Of a stretch of 32,000 nucleotides of DNA, positions 8,310 to 26,112 are shown piece after piece. The notes under the pieces are model-generated. The model was not told where the DNA came from. It ran no database searches and saw nothing but the letters and a program-made list of their open reading frames with translations. Origin of the DNA: Candidatus Hermodarchaeota archaeon. Lineage in GTDB: Archaea > Asgardarchaeota > Heimdallarchaeia > Hodarchaeales > Hodarchaeaceae. Made by a program: the position numbers and the translations under genes. The number at the start of each line of letters is the position of its first letter. The first letter of the stretch is position 1. The stretch covers positions 30,001 to 62,000 of the forward strand of contig JBHLKY010000023.1 in assembly GCA_048886185.1 (NCBI GenBank), written 5' to 3'.

Positions 8310-9626
8310 TTAGTTAACCTCCTCATCATGGTCTCCTGAGTCATAGACTGGTGGATCCTCAATCGTTGGTATTTCAATTGTAGGTATCTTAAGGTACTCC
8401 TCTGGAGTTGGTACTTCTTTAAACTCCTCCTCTTCCTTTTGCTTTTTTTCCTTCTCTTTCTTCTTCTTAGGTGTTTTTGGGAGTAGAGGAAGTTCGGTAA
8501 CAACTCTGTTGGTTAATCTCATGTAATAATTAGAAAAGAAATAGATTATCACACGATCTCCCAATTTCATTTTTTCTTCTGGTGATAAGAGTTCCTCCCC
8601 GCGACGAATGAGAAGAACCTTCTGTCTAATAAGATCTGAACTCATAGCTTTTCCTGTAGAACCTACGTAGGTTCTCGGGACATCTATCTCGACAGTTGGA
8701 GGAAAATCGAAATCCATACTCAGAGAATGAACTAGGCCCTGAATAGTAGCATCTAGATCTTCGATAATGATGAGGTTTTCGTCTTGGACAAGATCGCTAA
8801 ATACAAAAGCAGGAGCATATTGGGAAAGGAGTATAATCTCAACATCAGGTCTCACTCGTCTGATATTTGTCAAAATATTCTGGTTTAATTCAATGCTTTC
8901 AGTAAGAATCATGATACGACTGGCGTTCTTGAAGCCAATAATATCATATAAATTTGGTTTTTCAAATTCCAACTGATTCTCAACCACGTATTTGTCAATT
9001 CCCTGTAAACTACGGATCCAGAGCAGATCAACATCAGCAATTAATGATACCCTTTCTTCATAACCATATTGAAAAATCATCTCAAACAGAAATTGCTCTG
9101 CAGGTCTTGAAGTTCCAAAAACATAGGTAATATCCTTCCTTGTATTCACCTTGTCTCGATACTTGGCTATTGGGGATTTAATCATTGCTCGGATGATTAT
9201 AGTAAGAGTACCGATAATACCAGCGCCATATCGTACCGTTGTCTCGTTAAAAATCCCTGTTATCAAGGTATGGTGCAATCCAGCTTCAGAGCCAGGCTCT
9301 CCAAAATTAGATCCTCCCCACGCGTTCCAAGGGTCTCCAGGTATTAACCCGAGGGCAAGAGGAACACCCCAAATTACTAGAACAAGAAGAAGCGCAATAA
9401 AAAGACCGATCCAGAAGAAAAGGAGAAATAAATCTTGAAGGGGGATATAATATTTTATTTCTCGTAGGACAATTCGAATGACTAGCTTTGCATTTGCTCG
9501 GGCTGCTGTTAAATTAAACTTTAATTGACGCATATTGTCTCCGAATGTCCTTTTCTGACTTTTTACTCTTTCTTTCTTCTTTTTCTTATCTTTTTTCTCT
9601 TTCTTTAGTTCAGAGGATTGATTCAA
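8310..9626 (-). CDS. Membrane protein, 2TM (ion-channel-like) plus RCK domain
   Basis: Hydrophobic segment LFLLFFWIGLFIALLLVLVIWGVPLALG, then LHHTLITG...TTVRYGAGIIGTLTIIIRAM, then RCK (TYVFGTSRPAE, LYDIIGFKNASRIMIL, VLLIRRGEELLSP...LGDRVIIY). TTG start with an AGGTGA Shine-Dalgarno-like motif. Its TAA abuts the next ATG. Confidence 0.65.
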   Translation of the reverse strand: MNQSSELKKEKKDKKKKKERVKSQKRTFGDNMRQLKFNLTAARANAKLVIRIVLREIKYYIPLQDLFLLFFWIGLFIALLLVLVIWGVPLALGLIPGDPWNAWGGSNFGEPGSEAGLHHTLITGIFNETTVRYGAGIIGTLTIIIRAMIKSPIAKYRDKVNTRKDITYVFGTSRPAEQFLFEMIFQYGYEERVSLIADVDLLWIRSLQGIDKYVVENQLEFEKPNLYDIIGFKNASRIMILTESIELNQNILTNIRRVRPDVEIILLSQYAPAFVFSDLVQDENLIIIEDLDATIQGLVHSLSMDFDFPPTVEIDVPRTYVGSTGKAMSSDLIRQKVLLIRRGEELLSPEEKMKLGDRVIIYFFSNYYMRLTNRVVTELPLLPKTPKKKKEKEKKQKEEEEFKEVPTPEEYLKIPTIEIPTIEDPPVYDSGDHDEEVN

Positions 9627-11905: not shown

Positions 11906-13885
11906 TTGTCTGGAAATTATGATGCAAGTAGTATACAGGTTCTAGAAGGCTTAGAGGCCGTTCGTCGTCGTCCAGCGATGTATATCGGTAGTATTGATGA
12001 AAATGGGCTTCTTCATTTAGTGTGGGAAATCGTGGATAACTCGATTGATGAAGCAATGGCTGGTGCGTGTGACCAGATCAAAGTCATCCTAGGTCAAACA
12101 GAACATGGTTTTGAATCTGTTACTGTTCAGGATAATGGTCGTGGGATTCCCACGGAACCACACCCCGATTATAACATGTCATCCTTGGAATTAGTCACAA
12201 CTCGTCTTCATTCTGGTGGGAAGTTCGATCACACGTCATACAAAGTCAGTGGTGGATTACATGGAGTCGGAATTGCTGTAGTAAATGCACTATCTAGTTG
12301 GATGCAAGTTAAAGTTAGAAGAAATAACGGACCGGTGCTAATGCAAGAGTATGTTAGGGGAGAAACAATCTCTCATGGATTAATCAAATTAAAAGAAAGA
12401 TGGAAAGATCATAGTGGGACACATATATCATTTATTCCTGATCGTGAAATCTTCGAGACTGTTCACTTCGATATTTTACCTATCCGGAATCGGCTTCGTG
12501 AACTGGCGTTTCTGAATAAAGGGCTCGTTATTACTTTAATTGATAATCGAAAGCCATCAAGCGAAACAATTGTCAAGTTAGATGAGTCTTTTGAAAAAGA
12601 AAAGGAAAATACTTGGACCTTCCATTATGATGGTGGGATCCAAGCCTATGTTGAACAATTAGGAAGAAATCGAATACATGATGACATTCCTTATTTTGAT
12701 GAAACTATTGAAACCACCCAAGTAGAAGTATCGTTAGCTTATGATAGATCTGAACGTGAATTAGTTTACACTTTTACAAATAACATCAATACCCGACATG
12801 GAGGGACTCATTTATCAGGATTTAAATCAGGTTTGACCAGAGCAATCAATGCCTATGTCCTGAAAAATGAACATTTAGTTAGGAATACACATTTGCGAAA
12901 AAATCTAAAGGAAAAAAGGTCAATTTTTTCAGGAAATGACGTTCGTGAGGGATTAATTGCTGTTGTTTCTGTAAAAGTCATGAATCCACAGTTTGAGGGG
13001 CAAACGAAGAGTAAATTAGGTAATAGTGAAGTCAAGGGAGTCGTAGAACGCTGTAGCTATGAAAATATATTGAAATTCCTTGAGGAACATCCCACCAGTG
13101 CCAAAGAAATAATCGATAAATGTGAACAAGCCGCTACAATTCGGATGAAATACAGGCAAATTCGTGAAGCTGTTAAGAAAACTCAAGCGAAAGGTACAGG
13201 AAAACTTGTCGATTGTTCGGAATCTGATCCAGCAAAACGGGAACTGTTCTTGGTAGAAGGTGATTCAGCAGGGGGTAGTGCTATCGAAGGGAGATGGAGT
13301 GAATTCCAAGCCATCCTGCCATTAAGGGGGAAAGTGATAAATGTTGAAAAAGCACGTTTGGAAAAAGCAATGAGAAACAAGGAAATACTTGAAATCATTC
13401 GCTCTATTGGTGCAGGATATCGGGAAACCTTTGAAATCGAAAAAGTTCGGTATCACAAAGTAATATTGCTCATGGATGCCGATATTGATGGTCATCATAT
13501 TGTTTGTTTACTCCTAACGTTTTTCTTCCGCTATATGCCCGAACTGATTGATGAGGGTTATTTGTATGTAGCACAACCTCCTCTTTATCGAATTAAAAAA
13601 GGTAATAAGGAGCAATATGTCCTTACTGATCAGGAAAGAGATGATATTGTTAACGAATGGGGAGGAAATGTTGAAATTAGTCGTTTTAAGGGATTGGGGG
13701 AAATGAATCCAATACAGCTAAGAGAAACTGTCATGGATCCTTCAAAACGTACTCTTCTTCAAGTCACACGAGAAAATATCATTGAAGCTGAACGAATCTT
13801 TGTAACTTTGATGGGTGATGAAGTGAGACCCAGGCGAGAATTTATCCAAACGCATGCATTAGAGGTAGAAAATTTAGATATTTAG
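11906..13885 (+). CDS. gyrB: DNA gyrase subunit B
   Basis: LEAVRRRPAMYIGS, EIVDNSIDE, DNGRGIP, GGLHGVG, TOPRIM EGDSAGG, PLRGKVINV, DADIDG and RFKGLGEMNP. Short form lacking the large proteobacterial insert. TTG start. Confidence 0.97.
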   Translation: MSGNYDASSIQVLEGLEAVRRRPAMYIGSIDENGLLHLVWEIVDNSIDEAMAGACDQIKVILGQTEHGFESVTVQDNGRGIPTEPHPDYNMSSLELVTTRLHSGGKFDHTSYKVSGGLHGVGIAVVNALSSWMQVKVRRNNGPVLMQEYVRGETISHGLIKLKERWKDHSGTHISFIPDREIFETVHFDILPIRNRLRELAFLNKGLVITLIDNRKPSSETIVKLDESFEKEKENTWTFHYDGGIQAYVEQLGRNRIHDDIPYFDETIETTQVEVSLAYDRSERELVYTFTNNINTRHGGTHLSGFKSGLTRAINAYVLKNEHLVRNTHLRKNLKEKRSIFSGNDVREGLIAVVSVKVMNPQFEGQTKSKLGNSEVKGVVERCSYENILKFLEEHPTSAKEIIDKCEQAATIRMKYRQIREAVKKTQAKGTGKLVDCSESDPAKRELFLVEGDSAGGSAIEGRWSEFQAILPLRGKVINVEKARLEKAMRNKEILEIIRSIGAGYRETFEIEKVRYHKVILLMDADIDGHHIVCLLLTFFFRYMPELIDEGYLYVAQPPLYRIKKGNKEQYVLTDQERDDIVNEWGGNVEISRFKGLGEMNPIQLRETVMDPSKRTLLQVTRENIIEAERIFVTLMGDEVRPRREFIQTHALEVENLDI

Positions 13886-13900
13886 ACATCAGAGGTAGAA

Positions 13901-16399
13901 TTGAAGATGAGTAGTAGTATTAAACTGACTCCTATCGAACTAACTATGTCAAAGAGCTATTTAGAATATTCAATGTCGGTTATTACTAGTAGAGCCTTGC
14001 CACATGTACGAGATGGACTTAAACCTGTCCATAGACGAATTTTGTGGTCAATGCACAATTTAGGGTTAGTCCATAACAGACCACCACGGAAATGTGCTCG
14101 CACAATAGGTGAGACCCATGCAAAATACCATCCCCATGGAGAAGCAGCAATATATGATGCCTTAGTAAGGATGGCACAAGAATTTTCTTTTCGCTACCCT
14201 CTGATCCTGGGCCAGGGTAACTTTGGGAGTATGGACGGCCAACCCCCAGCAGCTCAACGCTATACAGAAGCTCGTATGGCAAAAATCACTAGTGAAATTC
14301 TAAAAGATATTGAAAAAGATACCGTTGATTTTGTAGACAACTTTGATGGATTAGACAAAGAACCTATCATTCTTCCAGCTAGAATTCCTAATCTTCTAAT
14401 CAATGGAGTAATGGGAATCGCTGTTGGAATGGCAACATCTATGCCTCCTCATAACCTAACTGAAGTATTAAATGGAGTTATTGCCACAATTAAAAATCCT
14501 GAAATTAGTACAGAACAGTTAATGAAACATATTCCTGGTCCTGATTTCCCCACTGGTGGGGTCATTTTTGGTACCTCAGGTATTAAGCGGGCTTACCACA
14601 CTGGTAGTGGAAATGTTATTTTACGAGCGAAGTATGAAATTGTTGAGAAGAAAAATAAAACTCAGATTGTCATCACAGAGGTACCTTTTCTTGTTAAACG
14701 TCAAGATACGATCGAACACAGAGGATTAGTTGATATTATTGAACAGATGAAGGAATCTGGCAAGCTTCCAGAAATTGGTTCAATAAAAAATGAGTCTAAT
14801 ATTATTCATGGCACTAGAATTGTGATCAATTTAAAAAAAACTGCTAATTTGGATATTGTGCTAAATCGGCTGTTTAAGTATACTCCAATGCAAATTTCAT
14901 ACTCTATTAAGAATATGGTGCTTGTAGATGCTCGTGTGGGTACCGAAACTCGATTTCGGCCTAAGAAATTGAATCTGAAGGGATTGATTAACCAGTTTAT
15001 TGATCATCGATATGAAATAGTAGTTCGTCGGACAGAATATGAGCTGAAGAAAGCTCAAGAACGAGCACATATTCTCGAAGGAAGGAAAATAGTAGTAGAA
15101 AATCTAGATGAAATAATTTCAATTATAAGAGCATCCGAGACGGCAGCAGAGGCCCAATCTTCATTAATATCACGTTTTTCTCTTTCAGAGATTCAAGCTA
15201 AAGATATTCTCTCACTTCCTTTGAGGAGTTTAACTCGTTTTGATCGTCAAAAAATAATTAAAGAATATGAGGATGTTTTAAAAGCCATTAAAGATTATAA
15301 AGAGATCTTAGATAGTCGTGATCGTATTTTTGATATTATTATTGAAGAAATAGAGGAAATTAAAAGTAAATACGGTGATGAACGTCGTACAACGATTCTA
15401 AGGGATGATTCTGAAGGATTTCAAGATTGGACTGGTAAAACTGAGGAAGATTTTATATCAGAGGAAGATATTGTTATTACACTAACTCAAAATGGCTACA
15501 TTAAATCCATTCCAGCTGAAACCTATAAAGCTCAACATCGTGGAGGAAAAGGAATAAAATCAATGGAAATTGGGAAAGATGATTTTTTGAAAGAGATGAT
15601 TGTTGCTTCTACTCACGATACTATCCTCTTTTTCACAGTCAATGGGAAAGTATATAGCGTTCGTGGATACCAAATTCCACTTTCCAAACAACGTGTTACA
15701 AAAGGAATTAATATTGTCAATCTAATTCGAAAAGAAACTGATGATGAGATTGAAACCATGATTTCAGTATCTAATTTCGATGAAGAACACTTTTTGGTAT
15801 TGGCTACTAAAAACGGGCTGATCAAAAAAACCACACTAACTGATTACGCAAACATACGAACTACTGGGATTATAGCGATTCAACTTAGAGATCAAGATAT
15901 GATTGTTGGTGTTAAAGTTACTGATGGAACTAAGGATATCGTGCTAGCTACACAGAAAGGGAAAGCAATACGTTTTCCTGAGAACCAAGTACGCGCTGTT
16001 GGGAGAAGTAGTATTGGAGTCTTAGGGATTCGACTAAGAGAGGATGATTTTGTTGTCGATATGGCGATTGTTGACGAAAAAAAGACATTATTAACAGTAT
16101 GCGCGAATGGATTTGGAAAACGAACAAAGTTCAATCAATACCGAATTACTCGTCGAAACGGAAAAGGTGTGATTAACATCAAAACCAAAAAAGGAAACGG
16201 TGACGTCATTGCGGTACGAACTGTAGCGGAGACCGATTACCTCATGCTAGTTGCTAGTGATGGGAAATTAATACAAATACCAATAAGAGATATTAGAACA
16301 ATTGGTAGATCCACGTCTGGGGTGACTTTGATGAGGCTAGACAAACAGAAAGGAGTCACAATTACCTCTCTTGCTATTTTAATAGAGGATAAATCTTAA
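13901..16399 (+). CDS. gyrA: DNA gyrase subunit A
   Basis: RDGLKPVHRR, YHPHG, catalytic AAQRYTE (Tyr codon 14261-14263), PGPDFPTGG, GyrA-box QHRGGKG (15533-15553) and a beta-pinwheel CTD of repeated blades. May start at ATG 13907. Confidence 0.97.
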   Translation: MKMSSSIKLTPIELTMSKSYLEYSMSVITSRALPHVRDGLKPVHRRILWSMHNLGLVHNRPPRKCARTIGETHAKYHPHGEAAIYDALVRMAQEFSFRYPLILGQGNFGSMDGQPPAAQRYTEARMAKITSEILKDIEKDTVDFVDNFDGLDKEPIILPARIPNLLINGVMGIAVGMATSMPPHNLTEVLNGVIATIKNPEISTEQLMKHIPGPDFPTGGVIFGTSGIKRAYHTGSGNVILRAKYEIVEKKNKTQIVITEVPFLVKRQDTIEHRGLVDIIEQMKESGKLPEIGSIKNESNIIHGTRIVINLKKTANLDIVLNRLFKYTPMQISYSIKNMVLVDARVGTETRFRPKKLNLKGLINQFIDHRYEIVVRRTEYELKKAQERAHILEGRKIVVENLDEIISIIRASETAAEAQSSLISRFSLSEIQAKDILSLPLRSLTRFDRQKIIKEYEDVLKAIKDYKEILDSRDRIFDIIIEEIEEIKSKYGDERRTTILRDDSEGFQDWTGKTEEDFISEEDIVITLTQNGYIKSIPAETYKAQHRGGKGIKSMEIGKDDFLKEMIVASTHDTILFFTVNGKVYSVRGYQIPLSKQRVTKGINIVNLIRKETDDEIETMISVSNFDEEHFLVLATKNGLIKKTTLTDYANIRTTGIIAIQLRDQDMIVGVKVTDGTKDIVLATQKGKAIRFPENQVRAVGRSSIGVLGIRLREDDFVVDMAIVDEKKTLLTVCANGFGKRTKFNQYRITRRNGKGVINIKTKKGNGDVIAVRTVAETDYLMLVASDGKLIQIPIRDIRTIGRSTSGVTLMRLDKQKGVTITSLAILIEDKS

Positions 16400-16415
16400 T
16401 AGGTGGGAAAATATC

Positions 16416-19400
16416 ATGACTAAGGCTGCGAAAACAACTAAAAAAGAAAATATTACTGAAGAGAAAGTCGTGCGAAGATCTGCAGCTGATTTTTTTCAAG
16501 ATAATAAAGCAATTGCTGGTTTTGACAATACCATGCGCGTTGTGTTTACCAGTGTGCGAGAATTAGTTGAAAATGGACTTGATGCAGCTGAAAGAATTGG
16601 AAATTTACCAGAATTACACATAACAATACAACGGTTGGAAAAAGAAGATATCGCTAGATTATTAAGCATTAGTAAGTTTGATTCAGCAGAAAAAATTGAT
16701 TTCATTCGATTAACTGTCCGTGATAATGGGAGTGGTGTTCAAAGCGAATTTGTACCCCCTTTATTCGGGAGGGTTTTAACAGGTAGTAACTATGGAGCCC
16801 GACAATCTCGTGGTCGTTTTGGCCTTGGTGCGAAGATGGTGTTATTAAATGCCATGTCATCTGTTGACCTCCCTCTTGTCATAAAATCAAAGTATATCAA
16901 TGAAGACTTTACTAGCTATTATGAGCTAATGATAAATTTAGCCGAGAATGAGCCGATAATATTAACTCAAAGAGAAATCCCTCAAGAAACTGCTGAAGCA
17001 ATCCCCAATTCGGGCACAGAAGTAAATGTAACTTTTACTGGTTCTTGGAACCTTGCCTCTCGTTGGATTCGTGAATATTTTTCCCAATTAAGTTTGATTA
17101 CCCCGTATTCTAGCTTTTACGTTCAATACCCTGATATTGATGAACCAATAGAAATGAAAAGAGTCGTCGAGGAGATGCCTGCATATCCACAGATCGCAAA
17201 GGTGCATCCTTGGGGAACTGACATTACTCAATTTAAGCGTGAGCTAGCAGTAACGAGAAGTAAAACCATGGAAACCTTTCTCCAAGATCACTTCCAAGGC
17301 ATTGGGCCTAAAACAGCTCAGGAATTCTTAGATTTTGTTAAAATAGATCAAAATAAATCTCCCAACGATCTTTCTGCAAGCGATATTAGGCGAATAATTC
17401 ACGAAGGGTTTGTGATGCCCGATTCTGACCCTAAAAAGCGTCGTGAACAAAAATACTTTCCATTCAGGAGACCAAGTGGCGATTCTCTCTCACCACTAGG
17501 TTCAGAATTATTAGCAAAAGGGATTGAGAAAGAACTGAATCCACAATTTGTCCGCTCAGCTGCAGGAGAAATTTCAGCTTATTCTGGGCATCCTTTCATC
17601 GTCGAGGTAGCCCTAGCTTATGGAGGGCCAATACTTTCCAGCGAATCTGGCAATCCGAAAATTTATCGATTTGCAAATCGAATTCCGTTATTATTTGGAG
17701 CAGGAAATGACATAATCACGAAATGTGTTCAAAAAATGAATTGGAAAGCTTACAAAATCAATATCAATAAATCACCTATCGCTATTGTTGTTTCAGTTGT
17801 TTCCTCAAAAATTCCTTTTCCAGAAACTAGTAAAGAGTATATTGCTGATGTTGACGAGCTTCGAAAGGAAATAATGCGAGTATTGAAAAAATTAGCTAGA
17901 GGATTAAGTCAACACTTAGGACGAGCTGAACGAGAGCGTCGGGAGAAACAAAGACAATCCCGATTTGAGAGCGCAGCTCCCAAAGTACTTCAGAATCTGT
18001 CAAAAATATTGGAAGTTACCCAAACTCCTTTCCTTTTACAGTCTTCTGAGGAGATATCAAAACTAGAAAAAGCCCTTGCTTCAGCAGTTCCCAGATTAGT
18101 TCGACGTACTTTTCCTCCCAGTCCTTTGATCTCGTCTATTGGGGAGTGGTTACCAATGGAGACTTATGTAACTCTTGTTGAACATAATATTCAAACAATC
18201 TACCAATTTTTACGAGCTCCTGTAGCAGAATTAAGTGATATTACAGGCCTAGCAGAAAATAGAATAGCAGAAATCAAACGTGCAACAGTTACTAGTCAAG
18301 AAAGGTCAAATTATGCCCCTTCTATGCGAGAATTCGAATTATTTTCCAAATCTATTGAAGATGATTATAGTAAATATCGTGATTCATTACGTATTCACAA
18401 AGCATTGAATAAACGGTGGATTGTATCTTCTTTGGATTTTTTTGCAACCCCGATACCCCAATTGCGCTTGGTTGAAAGTTTTCCTGAGAAACTTCTATAT
18501 GAGGCAAAACAAAGAGCAATCGATAAACATCTAGCGAATAATCCTGTAAGCGATTTCAGTTTACAATTACTTCCATGGATAACTGAAGATTTGGAGAAAA
18601 ATCTTAAGTCAGCTAAAATTCACAATATTCTAGATTATATAATTGCATTTCCAGAAAAGCTGGCACAAATACCAAACTTATCAATCCGATTACTTGAATC
18701 TGTAAAAAAGGAAATCAAAGATGGGATTACTCAAGGGTATATAGACCCTGAGAAAGTAATTGGAGCCGCTACATTTGATTGGATGGATTATCGTGTCACC
18801 CCACGTTTACGAGGGAGAAATATATCAAAAATAAGAGAATTTATGGAAACTCCAAATGAAAAATTAGCAGATATATCGGAACTTTCTGAAAATTTAATTC
18901 TCCGTTCAAAAAAGATTCATAATGAAGTACTAGTACAATTAAATGAGGAAAAACCCTTCTTAAAAGTGACAGCTCTCCAAGAATCAATGATATCAGACCT
19001 GGAACGGCTGGAAATTAATGGCTTCATTGATTTTCTCTTAGCTGAAGAAAAGGATCTACAAATAATTCGTGACTTAATATCACACCTTATCTCATTGAAA
19101 CAGGATGAAGTCCAAGAACAGATTGAACAAGAACATGAAATCTTTCCTACGAAGGCTGCTTGGTGGCTTGATTCAGAACTAGAGGTCCAGTTAAAGGATT
19201 TAGGTATTCAAACAGTGTACGATTTTGTACGTTGTCCTTCTTCAAGATTATTACAGTTAAAAAAGTTAGACCCAAAAATACTAGAAACTATTAAAAAAAC
19301 ATATGGAACTCCTATTCCCCTTTTAACTTCGGAAGAGTGTGAAAAACTAGAAACTTATAAAATTCTTTGTTTAGAAGAACTTCGGGCTGCAACATCAGAG

Positions 19401-22400
19401 TTGGAGTTAAAACCAAAGGCGTTTCACGATCGAATAACAGAATTACTAAAACTCCTGAATGTCCCTATTTGTTATCTTCCTGTTCCAAGTAAGTTCTATC
19501 ATACACTTCATCATATGGGAGTATCGAGAGTCATTGATTTTTTGATATGGCCTGACGATGATTTACATAAAAAAACAGGAATGTCTTACAAACTCATAGA
19601 AAGAACGAAAAGCAAGATTTCTGTTAAGGAAATTGAATCTCAAATTAAGAATAAAGCTCTTCCAGTAACTGTGTTATCAAAGAATTTGGAAGGAAAATCT
19701 TGGCAAAAGTTATATGAAACAGAACTTAGTATCCAACAGCTTTATTACGATTTACCTTATTCTACTGAGACAATAAATCACTTGGGGCTTTCAAACCGTG
19801 ATATATCACAGCTAAATACCTTATTTTTAACACCAATCTCAATGATCCCTCAAATTAAGCCTAATTGGGTAACTAGGCTACACACCAAAGGTATTAATTC
19901 CTTTATTGATTTGGTAACATGGTCAAGAGCTGATATTTCGGAAATAATTGGACGTGATGAGAGTTTTATTAATAATATGTTATCAAATTTCGATTCTTTC
20001 CTTTCTGGAATGCCATTAATTGACTTAGGAGTTTTAAACCCGAATGAGATGAATTCGTTAAAATCAAAAGGGTATACTACCATAGAAAGTGTATATTTTT
20101 GTGTTCGTAAAGAAACATTCGGAATTATGGGAGTAAAATGGAAAAAAATCGAGAGGTTTCAACGAATTCTTGAAACACCAGTGGCTATGTTACAATTACG
20201 TAGTAGTTCTGATAAATCCGCCATTCGTATTTCTCATGATAGTTTAGAACGTCTCGCCAGTAATGGAATAGATCAGATAATTAAACTCATCTATTGGACT
20301 TCGGATGAATTAAAGTCTATCCTTCGAATACCTTTATCGCGTATTGAAGAAATAAAACAATCAGTGGCAATCAAGGAACATGGAATGCCTCTAGAAATGG
20401 TTTGTGGATACAACCGGAAAACCATTTCAACATTATTGGGATATGGTATTGAAACGGTTGAAGATCTATATTTTACGGCTTCTGAAGACATGTTAGATGA
20501 GGATGATGAGCTTGATTGGAGTTATGTGAAAAAAGCAATTGAAGCACTTGATCTTCCTGTGACCTATCTCTCTGGGGTAATTACCGCAAAATATATTGAA
20601 AAATTAATAAAAAAACGGATTGACACCATTATTCGTTTCTTGATAACCTCTAGTGAAGAACTTTCTGAGATCTTAGAGACCCCTCCTGAGAATGTAGAAA
20701 ATTTAAGAAAGAAAATAAATCTTATTCAACTTCGAGAGTCGACAGAGACTTCTGTATCGATTCTTGAAGGCCTATCAAGGAAACAACTTCAAATTCTAGC
20801 TGAGGAACAAATTTTAACCATATTTGACTTTTTAACTAATCCTGATGACCAAATTAGCAATTTATTAGAGATAAATCTCGATCAAGTGGTTACAATGAAG
20901 AAAGATCTAAATTTCACAAATATTAAGTCGATTAAAGAGGAGAAAATGATTCCCCTGGCTAAAATTTCCCTTTTCGATAAAAAGACTGTAAGAACACTTG
21001 CTCGTTTAGGCATAGAGAGCCTGGCAGATTTATACTATGTTGCCACTCCAAAAACCTTTGCTGAAAGTGAAATCGATTGGCAAGAAATACTTGACGCAAA
21101 AACTGTGTTAGACATGCCAGTTGGTATTAGTCCAGTTCCCACAAATGAAGAGCTGGAAAAACTTCGAGATTCTAAGATAAGAACGGTTTTGGATTTGATG
21201 ATGGAGTCTCAGGATGAGCTAGCGGCACGTACAGAGATTTCATCAGCTAGGATAAAAGCTTTTCAGGATTCAATCAATATCAATGCAACTTTAACACTCT
21301 TAAAGAGGTTAACAATTGATCGGCTTAATTTTCCCACAGATTATCTTGCTAGATTACATCGTGAGGAATTATCTACAATTTATGAGCTCTTGACAAATCC
21401 CAATGAAGACATTTTTCTCGTAAAAGAGGGTGACAAAAAAATACGTATTGATAGAGAAAGGTGGGCTCGATTATTTTCAATCTTAGCTATTCCCCTTGCT
21501 TTAGTATTGGGACCTGATCGTGAAGATGTTAAGAAGCTTAAACAGAAGCGAGTTGAGACGTTACTAGATGCATATTCAGCATCACTGGAGAGGATTGAGA
21601 CAATTTTAGAAGCTGATCCCTCTGAACTTTATGTTGAATTGAATACACTCAGTTTTTCTGAAATTAATCAATTCATGAAGATTCCAATCTGTTTTATTCC
21701 TAATATCACCACTGAATGGATTAATACTCTCTTAAAACATTCCCTTACCCGTGTTGGGGATCTATTAAATATTAATACTAGTGACCTTGCTGAAAAGATA
21801 GGTACGACATCGCCTAAGACTCGGTCATTAGTGTCAGGAATTACCATGCCTGGAGTTATTAAGTGTTTAGAAGAAGATATGATTCCCCTCAATAGTTTTT
21901 ACAATATAATTCCCAAAAAAGTAATTTCTGACTTGGAGAATAGGAAAATTACTTCAATTCAAGAGTTAATCTTACATGATAAGACTGAATTCAACAATGA
22001 AGAATTGAAGAAGATTTATGAGGTTCTTGACAGTCCAATTAACAGGTTAACTGAAGATTTTCCATTGAGTGATTTACGTAAGTTGTCTCAAAGTGGAGTT
22101 TCAACAATTTCGGATTGGATGTTCACTCCAAATAGCACGCTATCTAAGCTGTTGGGGATAGATATTTCTGAAATAATTTCTTTGAAGAAAAAATACGATT
22201 TTCAAGCTGCTGGTGAAATTACTGAGGCTGACACTCCTCTTCAGGCTGTTATAGAATCAGGTTACATAGATTTCGAGGAAGTTGAAAATCAAGGTATAAA
22301 GGTTTTAGAAGATTTGTTATTCGTTGATTTGGGAACCATATCAGTATCAGATCAACTGAAATCTCGACTGAATGATTTGAAAGAAGCTCTTAATTCATCA

Positions 22401-23360
22401 TTAGCTTATTATCCTTTACTTCCTCCTCAGTACGTAATTCCATTAGCCCTTAATGGCGTTACATCTATTGCACAATTGATAAAAATGGATTTCAAGCAAT
22501 TAGAGGATCCAATGAACGTTATAGGGGAAGAAGAATACAATGTTGCTAGGAATTCAATAAATTTAGTGGATATCATCACTCATAAAAAAACTGATACAGA
22601 GTTTAGAGTCAAACTATCGACTCTGAAAGCATTTTCCTCGAAACAATTGGAAAAGATTAAGGACCTCGGTATCGATAATGTAATTGACCTTTATTTCCGA
22701 TTAGATACGGAAAGACTCACCAAATCACTTGTAAAACCTGTAGAAACTGTTAAACAAGTCTTAGAAAAACCTGTTGCCATTTTACCAGATCTTCGTGACA
22801 ATTTTCCCCAGAAAATCCTTCTATTGTATAATGCTGGTATAACTTCCATAATAGAATTCATGTTTTGGCCAAAAGATGACCTAGCAGAGTTACTTGAAAT
22901 AAAACGATATGATGTATCTAAATACCGAAAAATTGACATTGGTGGTTTAAAACGGAAAAAGAATTTAGGAACACCTATTGAGAATTTTGTTAGGATCCCT
23001 GAAGATTCAATTAATGCTTTTCAAGAAATGGGAATTGACAATATAGAGGATCTGTACTTTCATCTTAAGAGATATAACTTCATTCCTGAAGAAATAGTTC
23101 CGTCAAAGCTAATTAAGTCGTGTATTAAAGACCTAGAGAATCCAATTGTACGTATGGCAAATTTACCAATACCAGTAGCAGAGGAGTTAGTCAAAAGAGG
23201 AATTACACGGATTATTGATTTCCTCTATTGGCCTGATGACGAATTGAAGCAAATTTATGGATTATCAGCTGCTAAAATCAAACAAATAAAAGGAAACATC
23301 AGACTTAGGAGAAAATCTGATGTTGTTGGGCGATTGGATTCCTATATGACAAAAGAATAG
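16416..23360 (+). CDS. top6B: DNA topoisomerase VI subunit B with a C-terminal HhH-like repeat array of about 1750 aa
   Basis: GHKL motifs RELVENGLDA, DNGSG and GRFGLGAKM; H2TH HFQGIGPKTA; transducer RFANRIPLL and SKEYIAD. The core ends near 18090 and the same frame continues without a stop to 23360. AGGTGG Shine-Dalgarno-like motif upstream. Confidence 0.95.
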   Translation: MTKAAKTTKKENITEEKVVRRSAADFFQDNKAIAGFDNTMRVVFTSVRELVENGLDAAERIGNLPELHITIQRLEKEDIARLLSISKFDSAEKIDFIRLTVRDNGSGVQSEFVPPLFGRVLTGSNYGARQSRGRFGLGAKMVLLNAMSSVDLPLVIKSKYINEDFTSYYELMINLAENEPIILTQREIPQETAEAIPNSGTEVNVTFTGSWNLASRWIREYFSQLSLITPYSSFYVQYPDIDEPIEMKRVVEEMPAYPQIAKVHPWGTDITQFKRELAVTRSKTMETFLQDHFQGIGPKTAQEFLDFVKIDQNKSPNDLSASDIRRIIHEGFVMPDSDPKKRREQKYFPFRRPSGDSLSPLGSELLAKGIEKELNPQFVRSAAGEISAYSGHPFIVEVALAYGGPILSSESGNPKIYRFANRIPLLFGAGNDIITKCVQKMNWKAYKININKSPIAIVVSVVSSKIPFPETSKEYIADVDELRKEIMRVLKKLARGLSQHLGRAERERREKQRQSRFESAAPKVLQNLSKILEVTQTPFLLQSSEEISKLEKALASAVPRLVRRTFPPSPLISSIGEWLPMETYVTLVEHNIQTIYQFLRAPVAELSDITGLAENRIAEIKRATVTSQERSNYAPSMREFELFSKSIEDDYSKYRDSLRIHKALNKRWIVSSLDFFATPIPQLRLVESFPEKLLYEAKQRAIDKHLANNPVSDFSLQLLPWITEDLEKNLKSAKIHNILDYIIAFPEKLAQIPNLSIRLLESVKKEIKDGITQGYIDPEKVIGAATFDWMDYRVTPRLRGRNISKIREFMETPNEKLADISELSENLILRSKKIHNEVLVQLNEEKPFLKVTALQESMISDLERLEINGFIDFLLAEEKDLQIIRDLISHLISLKQDEVQEQIEQEHEIFPTKAAWWLDSELEVQLKDLGIQTVYDFVRCPSSRLLQLKKLDPKILETIKKTYGTPIPLLTSEECEKLETYKILCLEELRAATSELELKPKAFHDRITELLKLLNVPICYLPVPSKFYHTLHHMGVSRVIDFLIWPDDDLHKKTGMSYKLIERTKSKISVKEIESQIKNKALPVTVLSKNLEGKSWQKLYETELSIQQLYYDLPYSTETINHLGLSNRDISQLNTLFLTPISMIPQIKPNWVTRLHTKGINSFIDLVTWSRADISEIIGRDESFINNMLSNFDSFLSGMPLIDLGVLNPNEMNSLKSKGYTTIESVYFCVRKETFGIMGVKWKKIERFQRILETPVAMLQLRSSSDKSAIRISHDSLERLASNGIDQIIKLIYWTSDELKSILRIPLSRIEEIKQSVAIKEHGMPLEMVCGYNRKTISTLLGYGIETVEDLYFTASEDMLDEDDELDWSYVKKAIEALDLPVTYLSGVITAKYIEKLIKKRIDTIIRFLITSSEELSEILETPPENVENLRKKINLIQLRESTETSVSILEGLSRKQLQILAEEQILTIFDFLTNPDDQISNLLEINLDQVVTMKKDLNFTNIKSIKEEKMIPLAKISLFDKKTVRTLARLGIESLADLYYVATPKTFAESEIDWQEILDAKTVLDMPVGISPVPTNEELEKLRDSKIRTVLDLMMESQDELAARTEISSARIKAFQDSININATLTLLKRLTIDRLNFPTDYLARLHREELSTIYELLTNPNEDIFLVKEGDKKIRIDRERWARLFSILAIPLALVLGPDREDVKKLKQKRVETLLDAYSASLERIETILEADPSELYVELNTLSFSEINQFMKIPICFIPNITTEWINTLLKHSLTRVGDLLNINTSDLAEKIGTTSPKTRSLVSGITMPGVIKCLEEDMIPLNSFYNIIPKKVISDLENRKITSIQELILHDKTEFNNEELKKIYEVLDSPINRLTEDFPLSDLRKLSQSGVSTISDWMFTPNSTLSKLLGIDISEIISLKKKYDFQAAGEITEADTPLQAVIESGYIDFEEVENQGIKVLEDLLFVDLGTISVSDQLKSRLNDLKEALNSSLAYYPLLPPQYVIPLALNGVTSIAQLIKMDFKQLEDPMNVIGEEEYNVARNSINLVDIITHKKTDTEFRVKLSTLKAFSSKQLEKIKDLGIDNVIDLYFRLDTERLTKSLVKPVETVKQVLEKPVAILPDLRDNFPQKILLLYNAGITSIIEFMFWPKDDLAELLEIKRYDVSKYRKIDIGGLKRKKNLGTPIENFVRIPEDSINAFQEMGIDNIEDLYFHLKRYNFIPEEIVPSKLIKSCIKDLENPIVRMANLPIPVAEELVKRGITRIIDFLYWPDDELKQIYGLSAAKIKQIKGNIRLRRKSDVVGRLDSYMTKE
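18180..23300 (+). repeat. Tandem protein-level repeat array of HhH/RadA-N-like modules in Top6B
   Basis: About 28 modules by eye, with consensus L...G(I/V).(T/S)(I/V).(D/E)(F/L) and often W/TP..EL....G.....I..IK. Examples: HMGVSRVIDFLIWPDDDLHKKTGMS, NAGITSIIEFMFWPKDDLAELLEI, KRGITRIIDFLYWPDDELKQIYGLS. Spacing is about 55-70 aa. Confidence 0.85.
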
Positions 23361-23376
23361 GAAGGATGAATTATTA

Positions 23377-24786
23377 GTGTCTGAAAAAAATTGGATTAAT
23401 GTAATAATTGAGGATTATTCCTTCACCCATAATGTTGTTAAAACTGACATAGAGAAAGATGGTTCATTAAGTACTCTCAAAACCTTAGTACAAAAAGAAC
23501 TTAATTTGAAAAAACAGCCTTTTTTAATTTTTTTTGGACCCAAGAAAGCGAAACGTTATGAAGAGCTTACGAACAAGAACCTTAATTCGCTGTGGGAGCT
23601 GACGAAATCAGATGAGGTGGTATTACAGATCCGACGAAAAGTCGATTTGTCAAAAGTTCGAAGAATACGAGAGGTATTAACATCAGGAGAAGTTGATTTA
23701 CCTGTATCAGTCCTAAAAGTTGACAATGTGGCTCCAGAGGAAACTCGTAAACGCTTACAAGGAGTAGCGAGAGATTTTCTTGAAGAAATCGCTGAGGATC
23801 CCAAAGGAGCGGCATTTCGTATTCCAGCTCGGAGTTCTGAAAACGTGGGATATGATAATAATTCAAAAATGGTATTGCTGGGAAGTCATGTTGTTGACAG
23901 ACAGTTTCGCCATCTTAGTAGCGTCAAAAGTGTGGTGCAATTAACTGGATTAATGCGATATGTATGTGAAATTTTAGAAACTGAAAAACACGCTACAAAA
24001 CGACATCTTTTCTATCGTGATGTCAATTTATTCGAAAACCAACGGGTTTCTGATGGATTAATAGAAGATTTGGGTGCATTATTACGTGTGTCTCGAAATT
24101 CTATGAATGTAATTGCTTCTGCTAAAGGAAAAGTGATTGGGAGGATGTCTTTCACTGAAGGGGGGGATCTTATTGATTGTACACAAGGATTAGGGGGTCA
24201 TGCTATAACTCCTATGCTGGATCAGGTAGATAATATTGAGAGCGATGCTGAATTTGTATTAGTAATTGAGAAAGATGCTGTATTCCAAGATTTAGCTGAA
24301 GATAAATTCTTCAATTATCTTCCTTGTGTTTTAATAACTGCTTCTGGGCAGCCTGACATGGCTACACGCATGTTCATAAAGAAAATTCATGATGAACTAA
24401 GGCTGCCAATTTTAGGATTCCTAGATGCTGACCCATATGGATTAGATATTCTCAGAGTATATTCAATTGGGAGTAAGGCGCTGAGTTTTGAAAGTGTTGA
24501 ATTAGCTGTTCCTGACATTCGTTGGTTAGGATTATTACCTTCTGATATTCAGGAATATTCTATTCCGAAATCTGTTCTTATTAAGATGACGGAGAATGAC
24601 ATGAAACGAGCAGATGACCTACTCCAAGAAGACTTCGTAAAATCTCGTCCAGAATGGGAGAAACAAATAAGGATTATGATTGAAACGGGGAGAAAAGCCG
24701 AAATTCAAGCACTTGCAGGGAAAAATTGGCGATTTATGACTGGTACTTATCTTCCGTCAAAGATTGATTCTGCAGATTGGGTTTAA
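23377..24786 (+). CDS. top6A: DNA topoisomerase VI subunit A (Spo11 family) with an N-terminal extension
   Basis: Catalytic motif TKRHLFYRD (Tyr codon 24013-24015), TOPRIM VIEKDA, GQPDMATR, DADPYG and KAEIQAL. About 90-110 extra N-terminal residues. GTG start. Confidence 0.95.
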   Translation: MSEKNWINVIIEDYSFTHNVVKTDIEKDGSLSTLKTLVQKELNLKKQPFLIFFGPKKAKRYEELTNKNLNSLWELTKSDEVVLQIRRKVDLSKVRRIREVLTSGEVDLPVSVLKVDNVAPEETRKRLQGVARDFLEEIAEDPKGAAFRIPARSSENVGYDNNSKMVLLGSHVVDRQFRHLSSVKSVVQLTGLMRYVCEILETEKHATKRHLFYRDVNLFENQRVSDGLIEDLGALLRVSRNSMNVIASAKGKVIGRMSFTEGGDLIDCTQGLGGHAITPMLDQVDNIESDAEFVLVIEKDAVFQDLAEDKFFNYLPCVLITASGQPDMATRMFIKKIHDELRLPILGFLDADPYGLDILRVYSIGSKALSFESVELAVPDIRWLGLLPSDIQEYSIPKSVLIKMTENDMKRADDLLQEDFVKSRPEWEKQIRIMIETGRKAEIQALAGKNWRFMTGTYLPSKIDSADWV

Positions 24787-25560: not shown

Positions 25561-26112
25561 CTACTTTTGGGAATCACGATAATAAACTGCTCGACGAATA
25601 GCTGAAGCAAACGCTGTACCGACACCTTGATTTTTGATCGCCGAGGTCGAAAAATAAGTTGCATTCATTTTATCCGCAAACTTCAATCCTATGTCGTCAC
25701 TGACTTCACGTTCTTTCTCTAAATCAGTTTTATTTCCAACTAAGACAGCTGGACTGTCAGGGAGAATTTTTTTCGCTTCTTTCACCCAACTTGGGAGTGA
25801 AAGGACTGTGTTTTTCCTGGTTACGTCAAATATGTACATAATAGCATGGGCACCCTCGTAGAATAGAGGGCGAACTTTATCAAAAGCAGGTTGACCAGAT
25901 AAATCCCAGAAAATTGCAGTCGTTGTTTGATCACTTGATGAGCTTTTGAGTTTTATAAAGGAAATATCAGCCCCCGCAGTTGGTTTGTGTTCAAATTCCC
26001 TCCCAGTAAATACAGAAACTAACTGGGTTTTCCCTACTAACGCATCACCAGCAACTACAATTTTATATTGCGAAAAATGAGGCATCTCAAAAAGAATATC
26101 ATCAGCAGACAT
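25561..26112 (-). CDS. Rab-like small GTPase
   Basis: G1 GDALVGKT, G2 PTAG, G3 WDLSGQ, RPLFYEGA, G4 NKTD, G5 SAI. No C-terminal prenylation Cys. GGAGA Shine-Dalgarno-like motif upstream. Confidence 0.93.
   Translation of the reverse strand: MSADDILFEMPHFSQYKIVVAGDALVGKTQLVSVFTGREFEHKPTAGADISFIKLKSSSSDQTTTAIFWDLSGQPAFDKVRPLFYEGAHAIMYIFDVTRKNTVLSLPSWVKEAKKILPDSPAVLVGNKTDLEKEREVSDDIGLKFADKMNATYFSTSAIKNQGVGTAFASAIRRAVYYRDSQK

What the first reader, a model, noticed from the sequence alone, without database searches (positions are those of the whole stretch)
16416..23360. Giant Topo VI B subunit (2314 aa) with about 28 HhH-like DNA-binding modules
Seen: an intact Top6B core (GHKL, H2TH, transducer with its Lys) occupies about aa 1-560. 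It is followed in one uninterrupted frame by about 1750 aa of repeats such as GITRIIDFLYWPDDELKQIYGLSAAKIKQIK. Known: archaeal and plant Top6B are about 530-700 aa, and this motif resembles RadA/Rad51 N-terminal HhH-type domains. Methanopyrus Topo V uses 12 (HhH)2 domains for processivity, salt tolerance and AP/dRP-lyase activity. Inference: this is a type IIB topoisomerase with a long DNA-wrapping or tethering arm. It could confer processivity, crossing or supercoil-handedness selection, chromatin anchoring or repair activity, replacing the plant accessory factors (RHL1/BIN4). I know of no described Top6B like this.
Basis: partly seen in the sequence, partly recalled or inferred. Interest (0 to 1): 0.92.

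Follow-up and report, generated by a model that had tools for sequence, protein, structure and literature searches.

The report
Giant Topo VI-B with HhH-domain arm
This Asgard (Hodarchaeales) archaeon's only topoisomerase VI B subunit is four times the usual size: a normal ATPase core is followed by a conserved train of 28 small helix-hairpin-helix-type domains and a clamp-docking-like end peptide, a design shared by Heimdall-group archaea, found in no paper I could search, and untested in function.

Summary
Window 16416-23360 (+) is one intact 2314-aa frame. Residues 1-545 are a complete Top6B core. Residues 572-2301 are 28 tandem modules of about 62 aa, related to the RNA polymerase alpha-CTD and the Rad51-paralogue N-terminal domain.

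It is not an artefact. Single contigs from three runs span it without indels. 27 full-length orthologues are collinear. The tail is under purifying selection (dN/dS 0.07 against 0.03 for the core).

It is not unique. The array occurs in seven of 33 families sampled in the phylum, always in the Top6B frame, with frames of about 2200-4300 aa. Candidatus Heimdallarchaeum endolithica is among them. This scan had already met the design in at least six other genomes.

The gene lies in a gyrB-gyrA-top6B-top6A string.

Function is inferred, not shown. Homology and the Topo V precedent point to a DNA-engaging or tethering arm. Against a simple DNA wrap, the tail is mildly acidic, most modules lack the hairpin glycines, and each module keeps its own identity across the class.

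All 27 orthologues end in a conserved basic, PIP-like peptide. Predicted docking on the genome's PCNA got weak support only.

I found no description in the papers searched. I file it as a new variant of a known kind.

The parts
16416..23360 (+). top6B, whole gene: 2314 aa, 264.9 kDa
   Evidence: ORF and translation; molecular weight; 27 collinear full-length orthologues.
16416..18050 (+). Top6B catalytic core, aa 1-545: GHKL ATPase, H2TH and transducer. The transducer is 17472-17954.
   Evidence: NCBIfam PRK04184 E=1.5e-133. Pfam Topo-VIb_trans aa 353-513. Alignment to 2zbk_B and 2q2e_B with motifs kept. Core pI 9.0.
18051..18128 (+). Short connector, aa 546-571, between the last transducer helices and the first module
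   Evidence: Lies between the core HMM end and the first module. No family assigned.
18129..23318 (+). Array of 28 tandem (HhH)2-like modules, aa 572-2301, mean period 61.8 aa, with almost no linkers
   Evidence: - Module detection and alignment.
- AlphaFold2 of aa 1139-1440: 4-5 short helices per module, pLDDT 77.9, pTM 0.62.
- VIA-align: RAD51C N-terminal domain 8gj9_B, Z 8.0, rmsd 2.7 A, 63 residues aligned.
- Module profile against PDB sequences: RNAP alpha-CTD 1doq_A E=3.9e-6 and RAD51D N-terminal domain 2kz3_A E=9.7e-5.
20205..20735 (+). Most conserved three-module block, aa 1264-1440 (modules 12-14), with a genus-invariant acidic loop E-D-M-x-D-E-x-D in module 13
   Evidence: Invariant columns in A1. 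The same block is recovered at about the same distance from the core in every distant array-bearing lineage tested.
23298..23357 (+). Conserved C-terminal peptide, aa 2295-2314: basic RLRRK followed by a PIP-like x-G-R-L-D-S-Y-M
   Evidence: - Alignment A5 of 27 orthologues: R, G and M invariant; L, Y and V nearly so.
- The genome's own Fen1 ends in QQALDKFF.
- Predicted docking on PCNA: weak support, 0.35 against a best control of 0.02.
23377..24786 (+). top6A (Spo11-type A subunit), 469 aa, with about 110 extra N-terminal residues
   Evidence: Pfam TOP6A-Spo11_Toprim E=2e-63 and TP6A_N E=3.3e-17. The N-terminal part is shared by the Top6A of array-bearing lineages.
11906..16399 (+). gyrB (11906-13885) and gyrA (13901-16399), directly upstream on the same strand with 15-16 nt gaps
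   Evidence: Pfam DNA_gyraseB, Toprim and DNA_gyraseB_C. Pfam DNA_topoisoIV E=8.9e-149 with six DNA_gyraseA_C blades. ORF spacing.

Best explanation
This is the working B subunit of an A2B2 topoisomerase VI, about 636 kDa with the adjacent Top6A.

Shown:
- The ATPase/transducer core is complete.
- Behind it sit 28 small four-to-five-helix (HhH)2-like domains, joined almost without linkers, then a conserved basic, PIP-like end peptide.
- The whole is conserved and under purifying selection.

Inferred:
- In solved Topo VI structures the end of the transducer sits next to Top6A. Two arms therefore leave the enzyme at its DNA-gate end.
- I read each arm as a semi-rigid tether, very roughly 70-85 nm if extended.
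- The arm would hold the enzyme on the chromosome through many weak module contacts with DNA.
- It may also do so through its end peptide, possibly docked on the PCNA clamp.
- That would concentrate strand passage (decatenation and relaxation) on replicating DNA. The gyrase genes lie in the same tight gene string, so gyrase would set supercoiling.
For: Identity and integrity.

Real and conserved:
- 27 collinear orthologues of 2279-2330 aa. Tail identity is 66% against 84% for the core, with gaps in only 127 of 2348 columns.
- Single contigs of three runs span 16000-24000 with no indel. They come from one study and may be the source samples.
- dN/dS of the closest pair is 0.073 for the tail and 0.030 for the core.

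Module family:
- Pfam RAD51D_N, HHH_5 and RNA_pol_A_CTD.
- Profile against PDB sequences: alpha-CTD E=3.9e-6, RAD51D N-terminal domain E=9.7e-5.
- Fold: Z 8.0, rmsd 2.7 A, 63 residues to the RAD51C N-terminal domain. Other modules match BAF, Y-family thumb HhH and alpha-CTD at Z 4.7-5.8.

Defined packing: pTM 0.62 for five modules, and module boundaries abut.

Only in Top6B:
- The array profile hits 71 of 400 genomes of the phylum, always in the Top6B frame, and nothing else in this genome.
- Among 1.84 billion representatives, nearly all long array proteins carry the Top6B core.

Modest basic positions: K/R at module position 51 in 53% of copies with no D/E. Positions 12-20 and 45-46 are 22-33% K/R.

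End peptide:
- It is conserved in 27 of 27 orthologues.
- It shares L-D-S-aromatic with the A. fulgidus PIP peptide KTTQSTLDSFFK (PMC4929162) and resembles this genome's Fen1 end, QQALDKFF.
- Distant array lineages end in QKSLDEYS, QKSLNAFQ, QKTLDAML or KEVDKFF.
- The short Top6Bs examined, from other Asgard, Bathyarchaeia and Methanosuratincola records, lack such an end.
- Predicted PCNA docking scored 0.35 against a best control of 0.02. That mark was reached by 58 of 80 solved complexes and 2 of 110 mismatches. At 0.60 or under, only 7 of those 80 solved complexes reached it, as did both passing mismatches.
- The runs agree in at least 80% of contacts and the partner's pLDDT is at least 49. 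PIP-PCNA complexes are solved, so the pass may come from memory.

Precedent: Topo V carries tandem (HhH)2 domains and was solved bound to DNA (8df7 title).

Gyrase link: the four-gene string. Within the class, array and gyrA occur in the same families, in line with Villain et al. 2022 (PMC9348778).
Against: - No DNA binding, clamp binding or enzyme activity has been measured.
- The tail is mildly acidic (net -39, pI 5.4). Across lineages it ranges from -0.041 to +0.014 charge per residue, so charge is not a conserved feature.
- The glycines at the two turn positions are kept in only 48% and 29% of module copies.
- Only 4 of 28 modules reach E<=0.01 on their own against Pfam RAD51D_N.
- Modules share only about 20% identity with each other, yet each is conserved in place across the class. 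That fits specific contacts or a fixed architecture better than interchangeable DNA-binding beads.
- Acidic (HhH)2 repeats such as NusA AR1/AR2, and SAM domains, bind proteins. Both appear among the fold matches.
- The end peptide lacks the canonical Gln and the second aromatic residue. The docking result is weak.
- Family f28 has the array but no gyrA (0 of 5, two genomes 100% complete). Families f19-f21 have gyrA but no array.
Confidence: 0.5

Rival explanations
1. The arm is a protein-interaction scaffold, not a DNA binder. Its individually conserved modules would each recruit or contact a specific partner (chromatin proteins, SMC, replisome parts, gyrase, or the N-terminal domain of Top6A). 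They would work as NusA acidic repeats, SAM tandems and Rad51-paralogue N-terminal domains do.
For: - Acidic to neutral net charge.
- Position-specific conservation of unlike modules, and an invariant acidic loop in module 13.
- Loss of most hairpin glycines.
- Fold matches include NusA AR (Z 6.0-6.5), SAM domains (Z 5-6.4) and the RAD51C/D N-terminal domains (Z 7.4-8.0).
- Top6A in array-bearing lineages shares an extra N-terminal domain.
Against: - No partner has been identified.
- The module profile's best sequence match is the DNA-binding alpha-CTD.
- The host enzyme works on DNA, and Topo V shows that HhH trains can serve a topoisomerase.
- Array length varies from about 22 to at least 38 detected modules, possibly near 58. 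That is hard to square with a fixed set of partners.
Confidence: 0.25
2. The arms make the enzyme self-associate or form a fixed superstructure, such as a cage, a ring or a higher-order assembly around DNA. Their role would be architectural rather than binding DNA or partners one module at a time.
For: - pTM 0.62 for five modules and the lack of linkers suggest a defined train.
- Adjacent modules are the least alike (normalised similarity 0.029 at lag 1 against 0.083 at lag 2 and 0.077 at lag 3). I recall this pattern from tandem-domain proteins.
Against: I tested no self-interaction. The tools return no coordinates or inter-domain error maps, so rigidity is inferred from a single number.
Confidence: 0.1
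3. Topo V-like added chemistry: some modules carry AP/dRP-lyase lysines, so the enzyme would double as a repair protein. This was one of the first reader's suggestions.
For: - From memory, Topo V's repair sites lie in its (HhH)2 domains.
- A lysine-rich module position exists (position 51, 53% K/R).
Against: - No significant sequence or fold match to Topo V. The best Foldseek row, 8df7_A, has E=0.076 and probability 0.30.
- No Pfam repair family is found in this protein or in larger relatives.
Confidence: 0.05
4. Artefact or decay: a misassembly, a lost stop codon joining two genes, or a pseudogene.
For: A few public contigs show the core and tail as two called genes (L010, L003) or a tail in two ORFs (L002).
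Against: - In L010 and L003 the homologous reading simply continues in another frame after a single frame change or deletion. These are lesions or errors in single contigs.
- 27 full-length orthologues, and open frames in dozens of genomes, run through the junction.
- Contigs from three runs, built by a second assembler, agree without indels.
- Tail dN/dS is 0.07.
Confidence: 0.01

Closest known systems
Canonical archaeal topoisomerase VI B subunit (S. shibatae 2ZBK chain B, 530 aa; M. mazei 2Q2E chain B, 621 aa)
   Same: The GHKL ATPase, H2TH and transducer have all motifs (E=7e-84 and 2.1e-65). It is paired with an adjacent Top6A.
   Different: About 1770 extra C-terminal residues, where S. 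shibatae has a short helical end and M. mazei has one Ig-like domain of about 100 residues (PMC9348778).
Methanopyrus kandleri topoisomerase V (type IC) with its tandem (HhH)2 domains (12 as I recall)
   Same: A topoisomerase followed by a long train of double helix-hairpin-helix domains. It is the only comparable precedent I know of. Its chains head the Foldseek list, though not significantly.
   Different: - The catalytic domain is unrelated (type IC against type IIB).
- The train here is more than twice as long and, in this lineage, mildly acidic.
- The modules are nearer by sequence to alpha-CTD and Rad51-paralogue N-terminal domains.
- No lyase evidence.
RNA polymerase alpha C-terminal domain and RAD51C/RAD51D N-terminal domains (Pfam RNA_pol_A_CTD, RAD51D_N, HHH_5; precomputed PF26169 HHH_XRCC3_RpoA)
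   Same: Module sequence profile (1doq_A E=3.9e-6; 2kz3_A E=9.7e-5) and fold (8gj9_B Z 8.0, rmsd 2.7 A, 63 aligned).
   Different: In the alpha subunit and the Rad51 paralogues these are single domains. Here 28 stand head to tail, and most lack the hairpin glycines.
C-terminal DNA-binding domains of type IIA topoisomerases (GyrA/ParC beta-pinwheel; eukaryotic Topo II C-terminal region)
   Same: By analogy only: an accessory C-terminal element near the DNA gate that shapes substrate choice or localisation.
   Different: Different subunit, different fold, and far larger here.
NusA acidic repeats AR1/AR2
   Same: Acidic tandem (HhH)2 domains. They appear among the fold and profile matches.
   Different: Two repeats that bind proteins in transcription, not a 28-module train on a topoisomerase.
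C-terminal PIP motifs of archaeal replication proteins (for example Fen1; A. fulgidus peptide KTTQSTLDSFFK, PDB 1RXM, as cited in PMC4929162)
   Same: Position at the extreme C-terminus, a preceding basic stretch, and the L-D-S-aromatic core.
   Different: No Gln at position 1, and Met in place of the second aromatic residue. Binding is predicted only weakly.

Membership tests
Topoisomerase VI subunit B (Top6B) | GHKL/Bergerat ATP-binding motifs: E/N box, G1 DxGxG, G2 | tested here: met
   RELVENGLDA, DNGSGV and GRFGLGAKM align to the S. shibatae motifs. These residues are invariant across 22 diverse array-bearing cores.
Topoisomerase VI subunit B (Top6B) | H2TH domain and transducer with the WKxY motif and switch lysine | tested here: met
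   Pfam Topo-VIb_trans 180.4 bits (cut-off 24). NWKAY and TSKEYIAD align to the S. shibatae segments, and the H2TH region aligns.
Topoisomerase VI subunit B (Top6B) | Curated whole-protein model score | tested here: met
   NCBIfam PRK04184 scores 446.2 bits against a cut-off of 274. TIGR01052 scores 354.3 bits, just under its 380.7 cut-off.
Topoisomerase VI subunit B (Top6B) | Partner A subunit (Spo11-type 5Y-CAP plus Toprim) | tested here: met
   The adjacent gene 23377-24786 has TP6A_N and TOP6A-Spo11_Toprim. This is the genome's only match to the Top6B transducer family.
Topoisomerase VI subunit B (Top6B) | ATP-dependent strand passage | not testable with these tools
   Needs purified enzyme.
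(HhH)2 / alpha-CTD / Rad51-N-terminal-like domains | Sequence-profile match | tested here: met
   Whole-protein RAD51D_N 101.6 bits (cut-off 27.3), HHH_5 45.8 bits (cut-off 27), RNA_pol_A_CTD 25.3 bits (cut-off 23.8). Module profile against alpha-CTD E=3.9e-6. Only 4 of 28 single modules reach E<=0.01.
(HhH)2 / alpha-CTD / Rad51-N-terminal-like domains | Compact fold of four to five helices with two helix-hairpin-helix units | tested here: met
   AlphaFold2 gives 4-5 helices per module, pLDDT 77.9. RAD51C N-terminal domain Z 8.0, rmsd 2.7 A, 63 of 64 residues. Z near 8 is in the tool's grey zone for helical models, so the fold match counts only together with the sequence match.
(HhH)2 / alpha-CTD / Rad51-N-terminal-like domains | Glycine-containing hairpins that contact the DNA backbone | tested here: inconclusive
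   Gly is present in 48% of copies at module position 21 and in 29% at position 41, over 28 modules in 27 orthologues.
(HhH)2 / alpha-CTD / Rad51-N-terminal-like domains | Non-specific DNA binding | not testable with these tools
   Net charge is -39.
Topoisomerase V-like enzymes | Type IC catalytic domain | tested here: not met
   The only catalytic module found is the type IIB Top6B core.
Topoisomerase V-like enzymes | AP/dRP-lyase sites within the HhH domains | not tested
   No usable alignment to Topo V. The best Foldseek row, 8df7_A, has E=0.076.
PIP-box PCNA-binding peptides | Qxx[LIM]xx[FYW][FYW] at a chain end | tested here: inconclusive
   The C-terminal VGRLDSYM has L at position 4 and Y at position 7, but no Gln and Met at position 8. 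It is conserved in 27 of 27 orthologues. More canonical forms occur in distant lineages.
PIP-box PCNA-binding peptides | Docking on PCNA | tested here: inconclusive
   Complex prediction gave weak support: 0.35 against a best control of 0.02. The runs agree in at least 80% of contacts and the partner's pLDDT is at least 49. The pass may reflect memory of solved PIP-PCNA complexes.

The most novel reading that the evidence does not exclude
Heimdall-group archaea run a clamp-tethered type II topoisomerase. Each Top6B would carry a semi-rigid arm tens of nanometres long, made of 28 to about 58 HhH-type domains. The end peptide would dock on DNA-loaded PCNA, and the modules would lie along or measure DNA. 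Decatenation would then be physically coupled to replication. That would be a new way of targeting a topoisomerase. It arose in lineages that many studies place close to the origin of eukaryotes, which have no Topo II.
Probability: 0.2. Interest if true: 0.85.

Novelty: new variant of a known kind. Interest (0 to 1): 0.7.

Why it matters
Topo VI is the general decatenase of archaea and the ancestor of Spo11. Published structural and evolutionary work treats its B subunit as a protein of about 500-800 residues.

In the Heimdall-group families sampled here, except one, it is a 2200-4300-residue protein. Most of its mass is an uncharacterised train of HhH-type domains.

If the arm tethers or steers the enzyme, it would reveal how these archaea organise chromosome untangling alongside an acquired gyrase. 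Many studies place them close to the origin of eukaryotes.

The train is also a natural multi-HhH fusion, of the kind from which Topo V domains were borrowed to make DNA polymerases more processive and salt-tolerant (from memory). It is directly testable: express the enzyme with and without the arm.

Public annotation as plain 'Top6B' hides all this. Alignments trimmed to the core, as in published phylogenies, would not show it.

Tried and rejected
- **Foldseek against the PDB** with the five-module model: no match at E<=0.001. The top rows were Topo V, RadA/RAD51 and tandem SAM domains at E 0.08-0.8. Global alignment of a multi-domain model is a poor test, so I used VIA-align instead.
- **Expression:** no RNA holder is listed among the sequencing runs, so expression could not be examined.
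- **Tail as a separate gene:** the array-only proteins in the exhaustive search turned out to be contig fragments (L008, L009). Others were frame-broken calls (L010, L003), where the homologous reading continues in another frame. L002, from a distant lineage, has a TAATG stop/start overlap inside its tail. It may be a true split and was not resolved.
- **Strict two-module super-repeat:** adjacent modules are the least alike, but lag 3 scores about the same as lag 2, so I found no clean period of two.
- **Gyrase as the sole driver of the array:** this fails for f28 (array, no gyrA) and for f19-f21 (gyrA, no array).
- **Extra catalytic domains in the larger relatives:** Pfam finds none.
- **Unrelated hits to the module profile:** P0075 is a bacterial-type protein with seven alpha-CTD repeats plus sigma-70 region 4. 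P0094 and P0106 are low-complexity or unrelated hits.
- **Literature:** five full-text searches and seven papers read gave no description of the array. The nearest is 'a globular domain' at the C-terminus of Top6B in gyrase-encoding Asgard archaea (PMC9348778).
- **Unused:** the second structure-prediction job. The tool returns no coordinates, so a longer model would not have shown the arm's shape.
Full report
**What is there.** Window 16416-23360 (+) is one open frame of 2314 codons with an ATG start. It sits in a same-strand string with gaps of 15-16 nt:
- gyrB, 11906-13885
- gyrA, 13901-16399
- top6B, 16416-23360
- top6A, 23377-24786

The host genome is a 4.84-Mb, 75-contig assembly, 96% complete. 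Close relatives of the protein are labelled Hodarchaeales or Hodarchaeota, for example Candidatus Hodarchaeum mangrovi at 58% identity over the tail. The DNA comes from sediment metagenomes.

**The core.**
- Residues 1-545 are a complete Top6B. NCBIfam PRK04184 gives E=1.5e-133, and Pfam Topo-VIb_trans gives E=2.8e-53.
- The core aligns to S. shibatae Top6B (2zbk_B, E=7e-84) and M. mazei Top6B (2q2e_B, E=2.1e-65).
- The ATP-binding boxes, the H2TH segment, WKxY and the switch-lysine segment are all kept.
- The downstream Top6A has both of its Pfam domains.
- This is the genome's only match to the Top6B transducer family.

**The tail.**
- An iterated HMM finds 28 modules between aa 572 and 2301, with a mean period of 61.8 aa and essentially no linkers.
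- Shuffled tails give 0.18 hits against 26. An HMM trained on the first half alone recovers 12 modules in the second half.
- Modules share only about 20% identity with each other.
- The consensus is a hydrophobic core plus a leading Pro, an Asp at position 27 (77% D/E), Gly at two turn positions (48% and 29%) and a Lys/Arg at position 51 (53%).

**What the modules are.**
- Whole-protein Pfam scores are significant for RAD51D_N (101.6 bits), HHH_5 and RNA_pol_A_CTD. Only 4 of 28 modules pass alone.
- A profile of the 28 modules matches PDB sequences of Thermus RNA polymerase alpha-CTD (E=3.9e-6) and the RAD51D N-terminal domain (E=9.7e-5). NusA acidic repeats, the RAD51 N-terminal domain and Y-family and XPF HhH units score more weakly.
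- AlphaFold2 of aa 1139-1440, with 27 orthologues, gives pLDDT 77.9 and pTM 0.62, with four to five short helices per module.
- Foldseek finds nothing significant.
- VIA-align places one module on the RAD51C N-terminal domain (Z 8.0, rmsd 2.7 A, 63 residues, 25% identity). It then lists the BCDX2 RAD51 paralogues, the PolQ HhH region, NusA AR, the Rad51 N-terminal domain, Pol X, alpha-CTD and SAM domains at Z 5-7.6.
- Sequence and fold together support an (HhH)2 or SAM-like domain of the alpha-CTD / Rad51-N-terminal kind.

**It is real.**
- 27 full-length orthologues (2279-2330 aa) align collinearly. Tail identity to this protein is 66% and core identity 84%. Only 127 of 2348 columns hold any gap.
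- Single contigs of three of four runs, built by a second assembler, span 16000-24000 with no indel. They are from one study and may be the source samples.
- For the closest pair of genus genomes, dN/dS is 0.030 in the core and 0.073 in the tail, at dS of about 0.9. More distant pairs are saturated.
- Called 'split' forms in public contigs are frame changes or a deletion within single contigs. One distant contig with a TAATG overlap remains unresolved.

**How widespread it is.**
- Searching 400 genomes of the phylum with the transducer family gave these open frames:

| Group | Top6B open frame |
|---|---|
| Own genus | 2312-2346 aa |
| Family f3 | 4244 aa |
| Family f4 | mostly 4140-4305 aa |
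| Family f5 | 2532-3573 aa |
| Family f6 | 2194-3587 aa |
| Family f28 (another class) | 2286-2297 aa |
| Other Asgard groups | mostly about 500-680 aa |

- A five-module profile hits 71 of 400 genomes. The counts are f1 20/21, f2 2/2, f3 1/1, f4 28/31, f5 3/3, f6 12/12 and f28 4/5. It hits none in f7 (0/12), f20 (0/135) or the rest. Every hit lies in the Top6B frame.
- Named records include the complete genome of Candidatus Heimdallarchaeum endolithica PR6 (CP084167.1). Its frame runs beyond 3873 aa to the edge of the fetched locus.
- A profile search of 1.84 billion representative proteins gives only 244 hits at E<=0.001. Nearly all the long ones (1904-4341 aa) carry the Top6B core.
- Larger relatives show no other Pfam family in the tail. 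At least 38 modules are detected in a 4341-aa relative, with gaps in multiples of about 60 aa.
- A three-module block (aa 1264-1440 here) is recognisable at about the same distance from the core in every array-bearing lineage tested. The array is therefore old and its modules have individual identities.
- This scan's earlier reports describe the same architecture in at least six other genomes.

**Gyrase.** In the same class, gyrA is found in 68 of 70 genomes of families f1-f6 and in none of 12 in f7. That parallels the array. However, f28 has the array without gyrA (0/5), and f19-f21 have gyrA (133/153) without the array. These are few independent contrasts. They fit only in part the idea of Villain et al. 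2022 (PMC9348778) that Top6B C-terminal additions followed the acquisition of gyrase.

**How it may work.**
- The arm starts where the transducer ends. As I recall from the solved structures, that is next to Top6A at the DNA-gate end.
- Homology to DNA-binding HhH domains and the Topo V precedent favour a DNA-engaging arm. So do the modestly basic module positions.
- Against a simple polycationic wrap: the tail has net charge -39 and pI 5.4, while the core has pI 9.0. Charge varies among lineages from -0.041 to +0.014 per residue. Most hairpin glycines are lost. The modules are conserved in place but are unlike one another.

**The end peptide.** I followed a lead from an earlier report (e1-5444058) and looked at the C-terminus.
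- All 27 orthologues end in RLRRK-x-DV-h-G-[RQK]-L-D-[SA]-Y-M plus two to five residues.
- The genome's own Fen1 ends in QQALDKFF. The A. fulgidus PIP peptide is KTTQSTLDSFFK (PMC4929162).
- Distant array lineages end in QKSLDEYS, QKSLNAFQ, QKTLDAML or KEVDKFF.
- The short Top6Bs I examined, from Njordarchaeota, Hermodarchaeum, two unnamed Asgard records, a Bathyarchaeia MAG and Methanosuratincola, have no such end.
- A predicted complex of the genome's PCNA (residues 1-256) with the last 45 residues scored 0.35 against a best control of 0.02. This is 'weak support', with the caveats listed under evidence.

I therefore rank the readings as follows:
- A chromosome or replisome tether that may also touch DNA along its length: about 0.5.
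- A pure protein scaffold: about 0.25.
- An architectural self-assembly role: about 0.1.
- Added lyase chemistry: about 0.05.
- An artefact: about 0.01.

**Novelty.** Five searches of the paper library and seven papers read turned up no description. The nearest statement is that gyrase-encoding Asgard Top6B ends in 'a globular domain' (PMC9348778). The proteins are deposited as plain 'DNA topoisomerase VI subunit B'. I class this as a new variant of a known kind. It is interesting to topoisomerase and Asgard specialists and directly testable.

Noticed in passing
window 11906-24786: All four type II topoisomerase genes (gyrB, gyrA, top6B, top6A) lie head to tail with 15-16 nt gaps. In most genus genomes gyrA lies on the same contig a few kb upstream of top6B. 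In the three family f4 genomes whose gyrA was listed, the two genes are on different contigs.
   Followed up: partly
window 23377-23710 (Top6A aa 1-110): Top6A carries about 110 extra N-terminal residues with a faint Pfam hit to the ubiquitin-like UN_NPL4 domain (E=0.04). The Top6A of distant array-bearing lineages (462-467 aa) aligns through this part. The Top6A of Bathyarchaeia and Thermoprotei (about 360-390 aa) does not.
   Followed up: partly
L114:1492-2349 (G000 contig C9): The single PCNA of this genome and its genus is 280-298 aa. It ends in an extremely acidic tail of about 35 residues with repeated D-E-D-W units.
   Followed up: no
G000 contigs C13, C1, C14 (twice), C2 (loci L004-L007): The genome has five strong Rad51/RadA-family matches with open frames of 334-370 aa, plus one weak match. 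That is an unusually large set of recombinase paralogues.
   Followed up: no
window 20205-20735 (Top6B aa 1264-1440): This three-module block is the best conserved part of the tail across all array-bearing lineages. Module 13 holds a genus-invariant acidic loop followed by a Trp. It is a candidate specific interaction site.
   Followed up: partly
L002:860-980; L010:5800-6200; L003:7600-8100: Public contigs in which the giant Top6B is called as two genes. Two are single frame changes or a deletion. The third, from a distant lineage, has a TAATG stop/start overlap inside the tail and could be a true split.
   Followed up: partly
genomes G080-G090 (family f7, same class): This family lacks both gyrA and the array. 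It mostly has two Top6B-type frames per genome, about 500 aa and about 1110-1120 aa. I did not examine the nature of the longer copy's extension.
   Followed up: no
protein P0075 (from the representative library): A 1059-aa protein with seven tandem RNA polymerase alpha-CTD repeats (E=5e-86) plus a sigma-70 region 4. It is an unrelated example of an alpha-CTD train.
   Followed up: no
window 25561-26112 (-), 4030-6915 (+), 8310-9626 (-): A Ras-family small GTPase (Pfam Ras E=7e-35) lies just downstream of the topoisomerase string. A 961-aa ORF and a 438-aa ORF upstream have no Pfam match.
   Followed up: no
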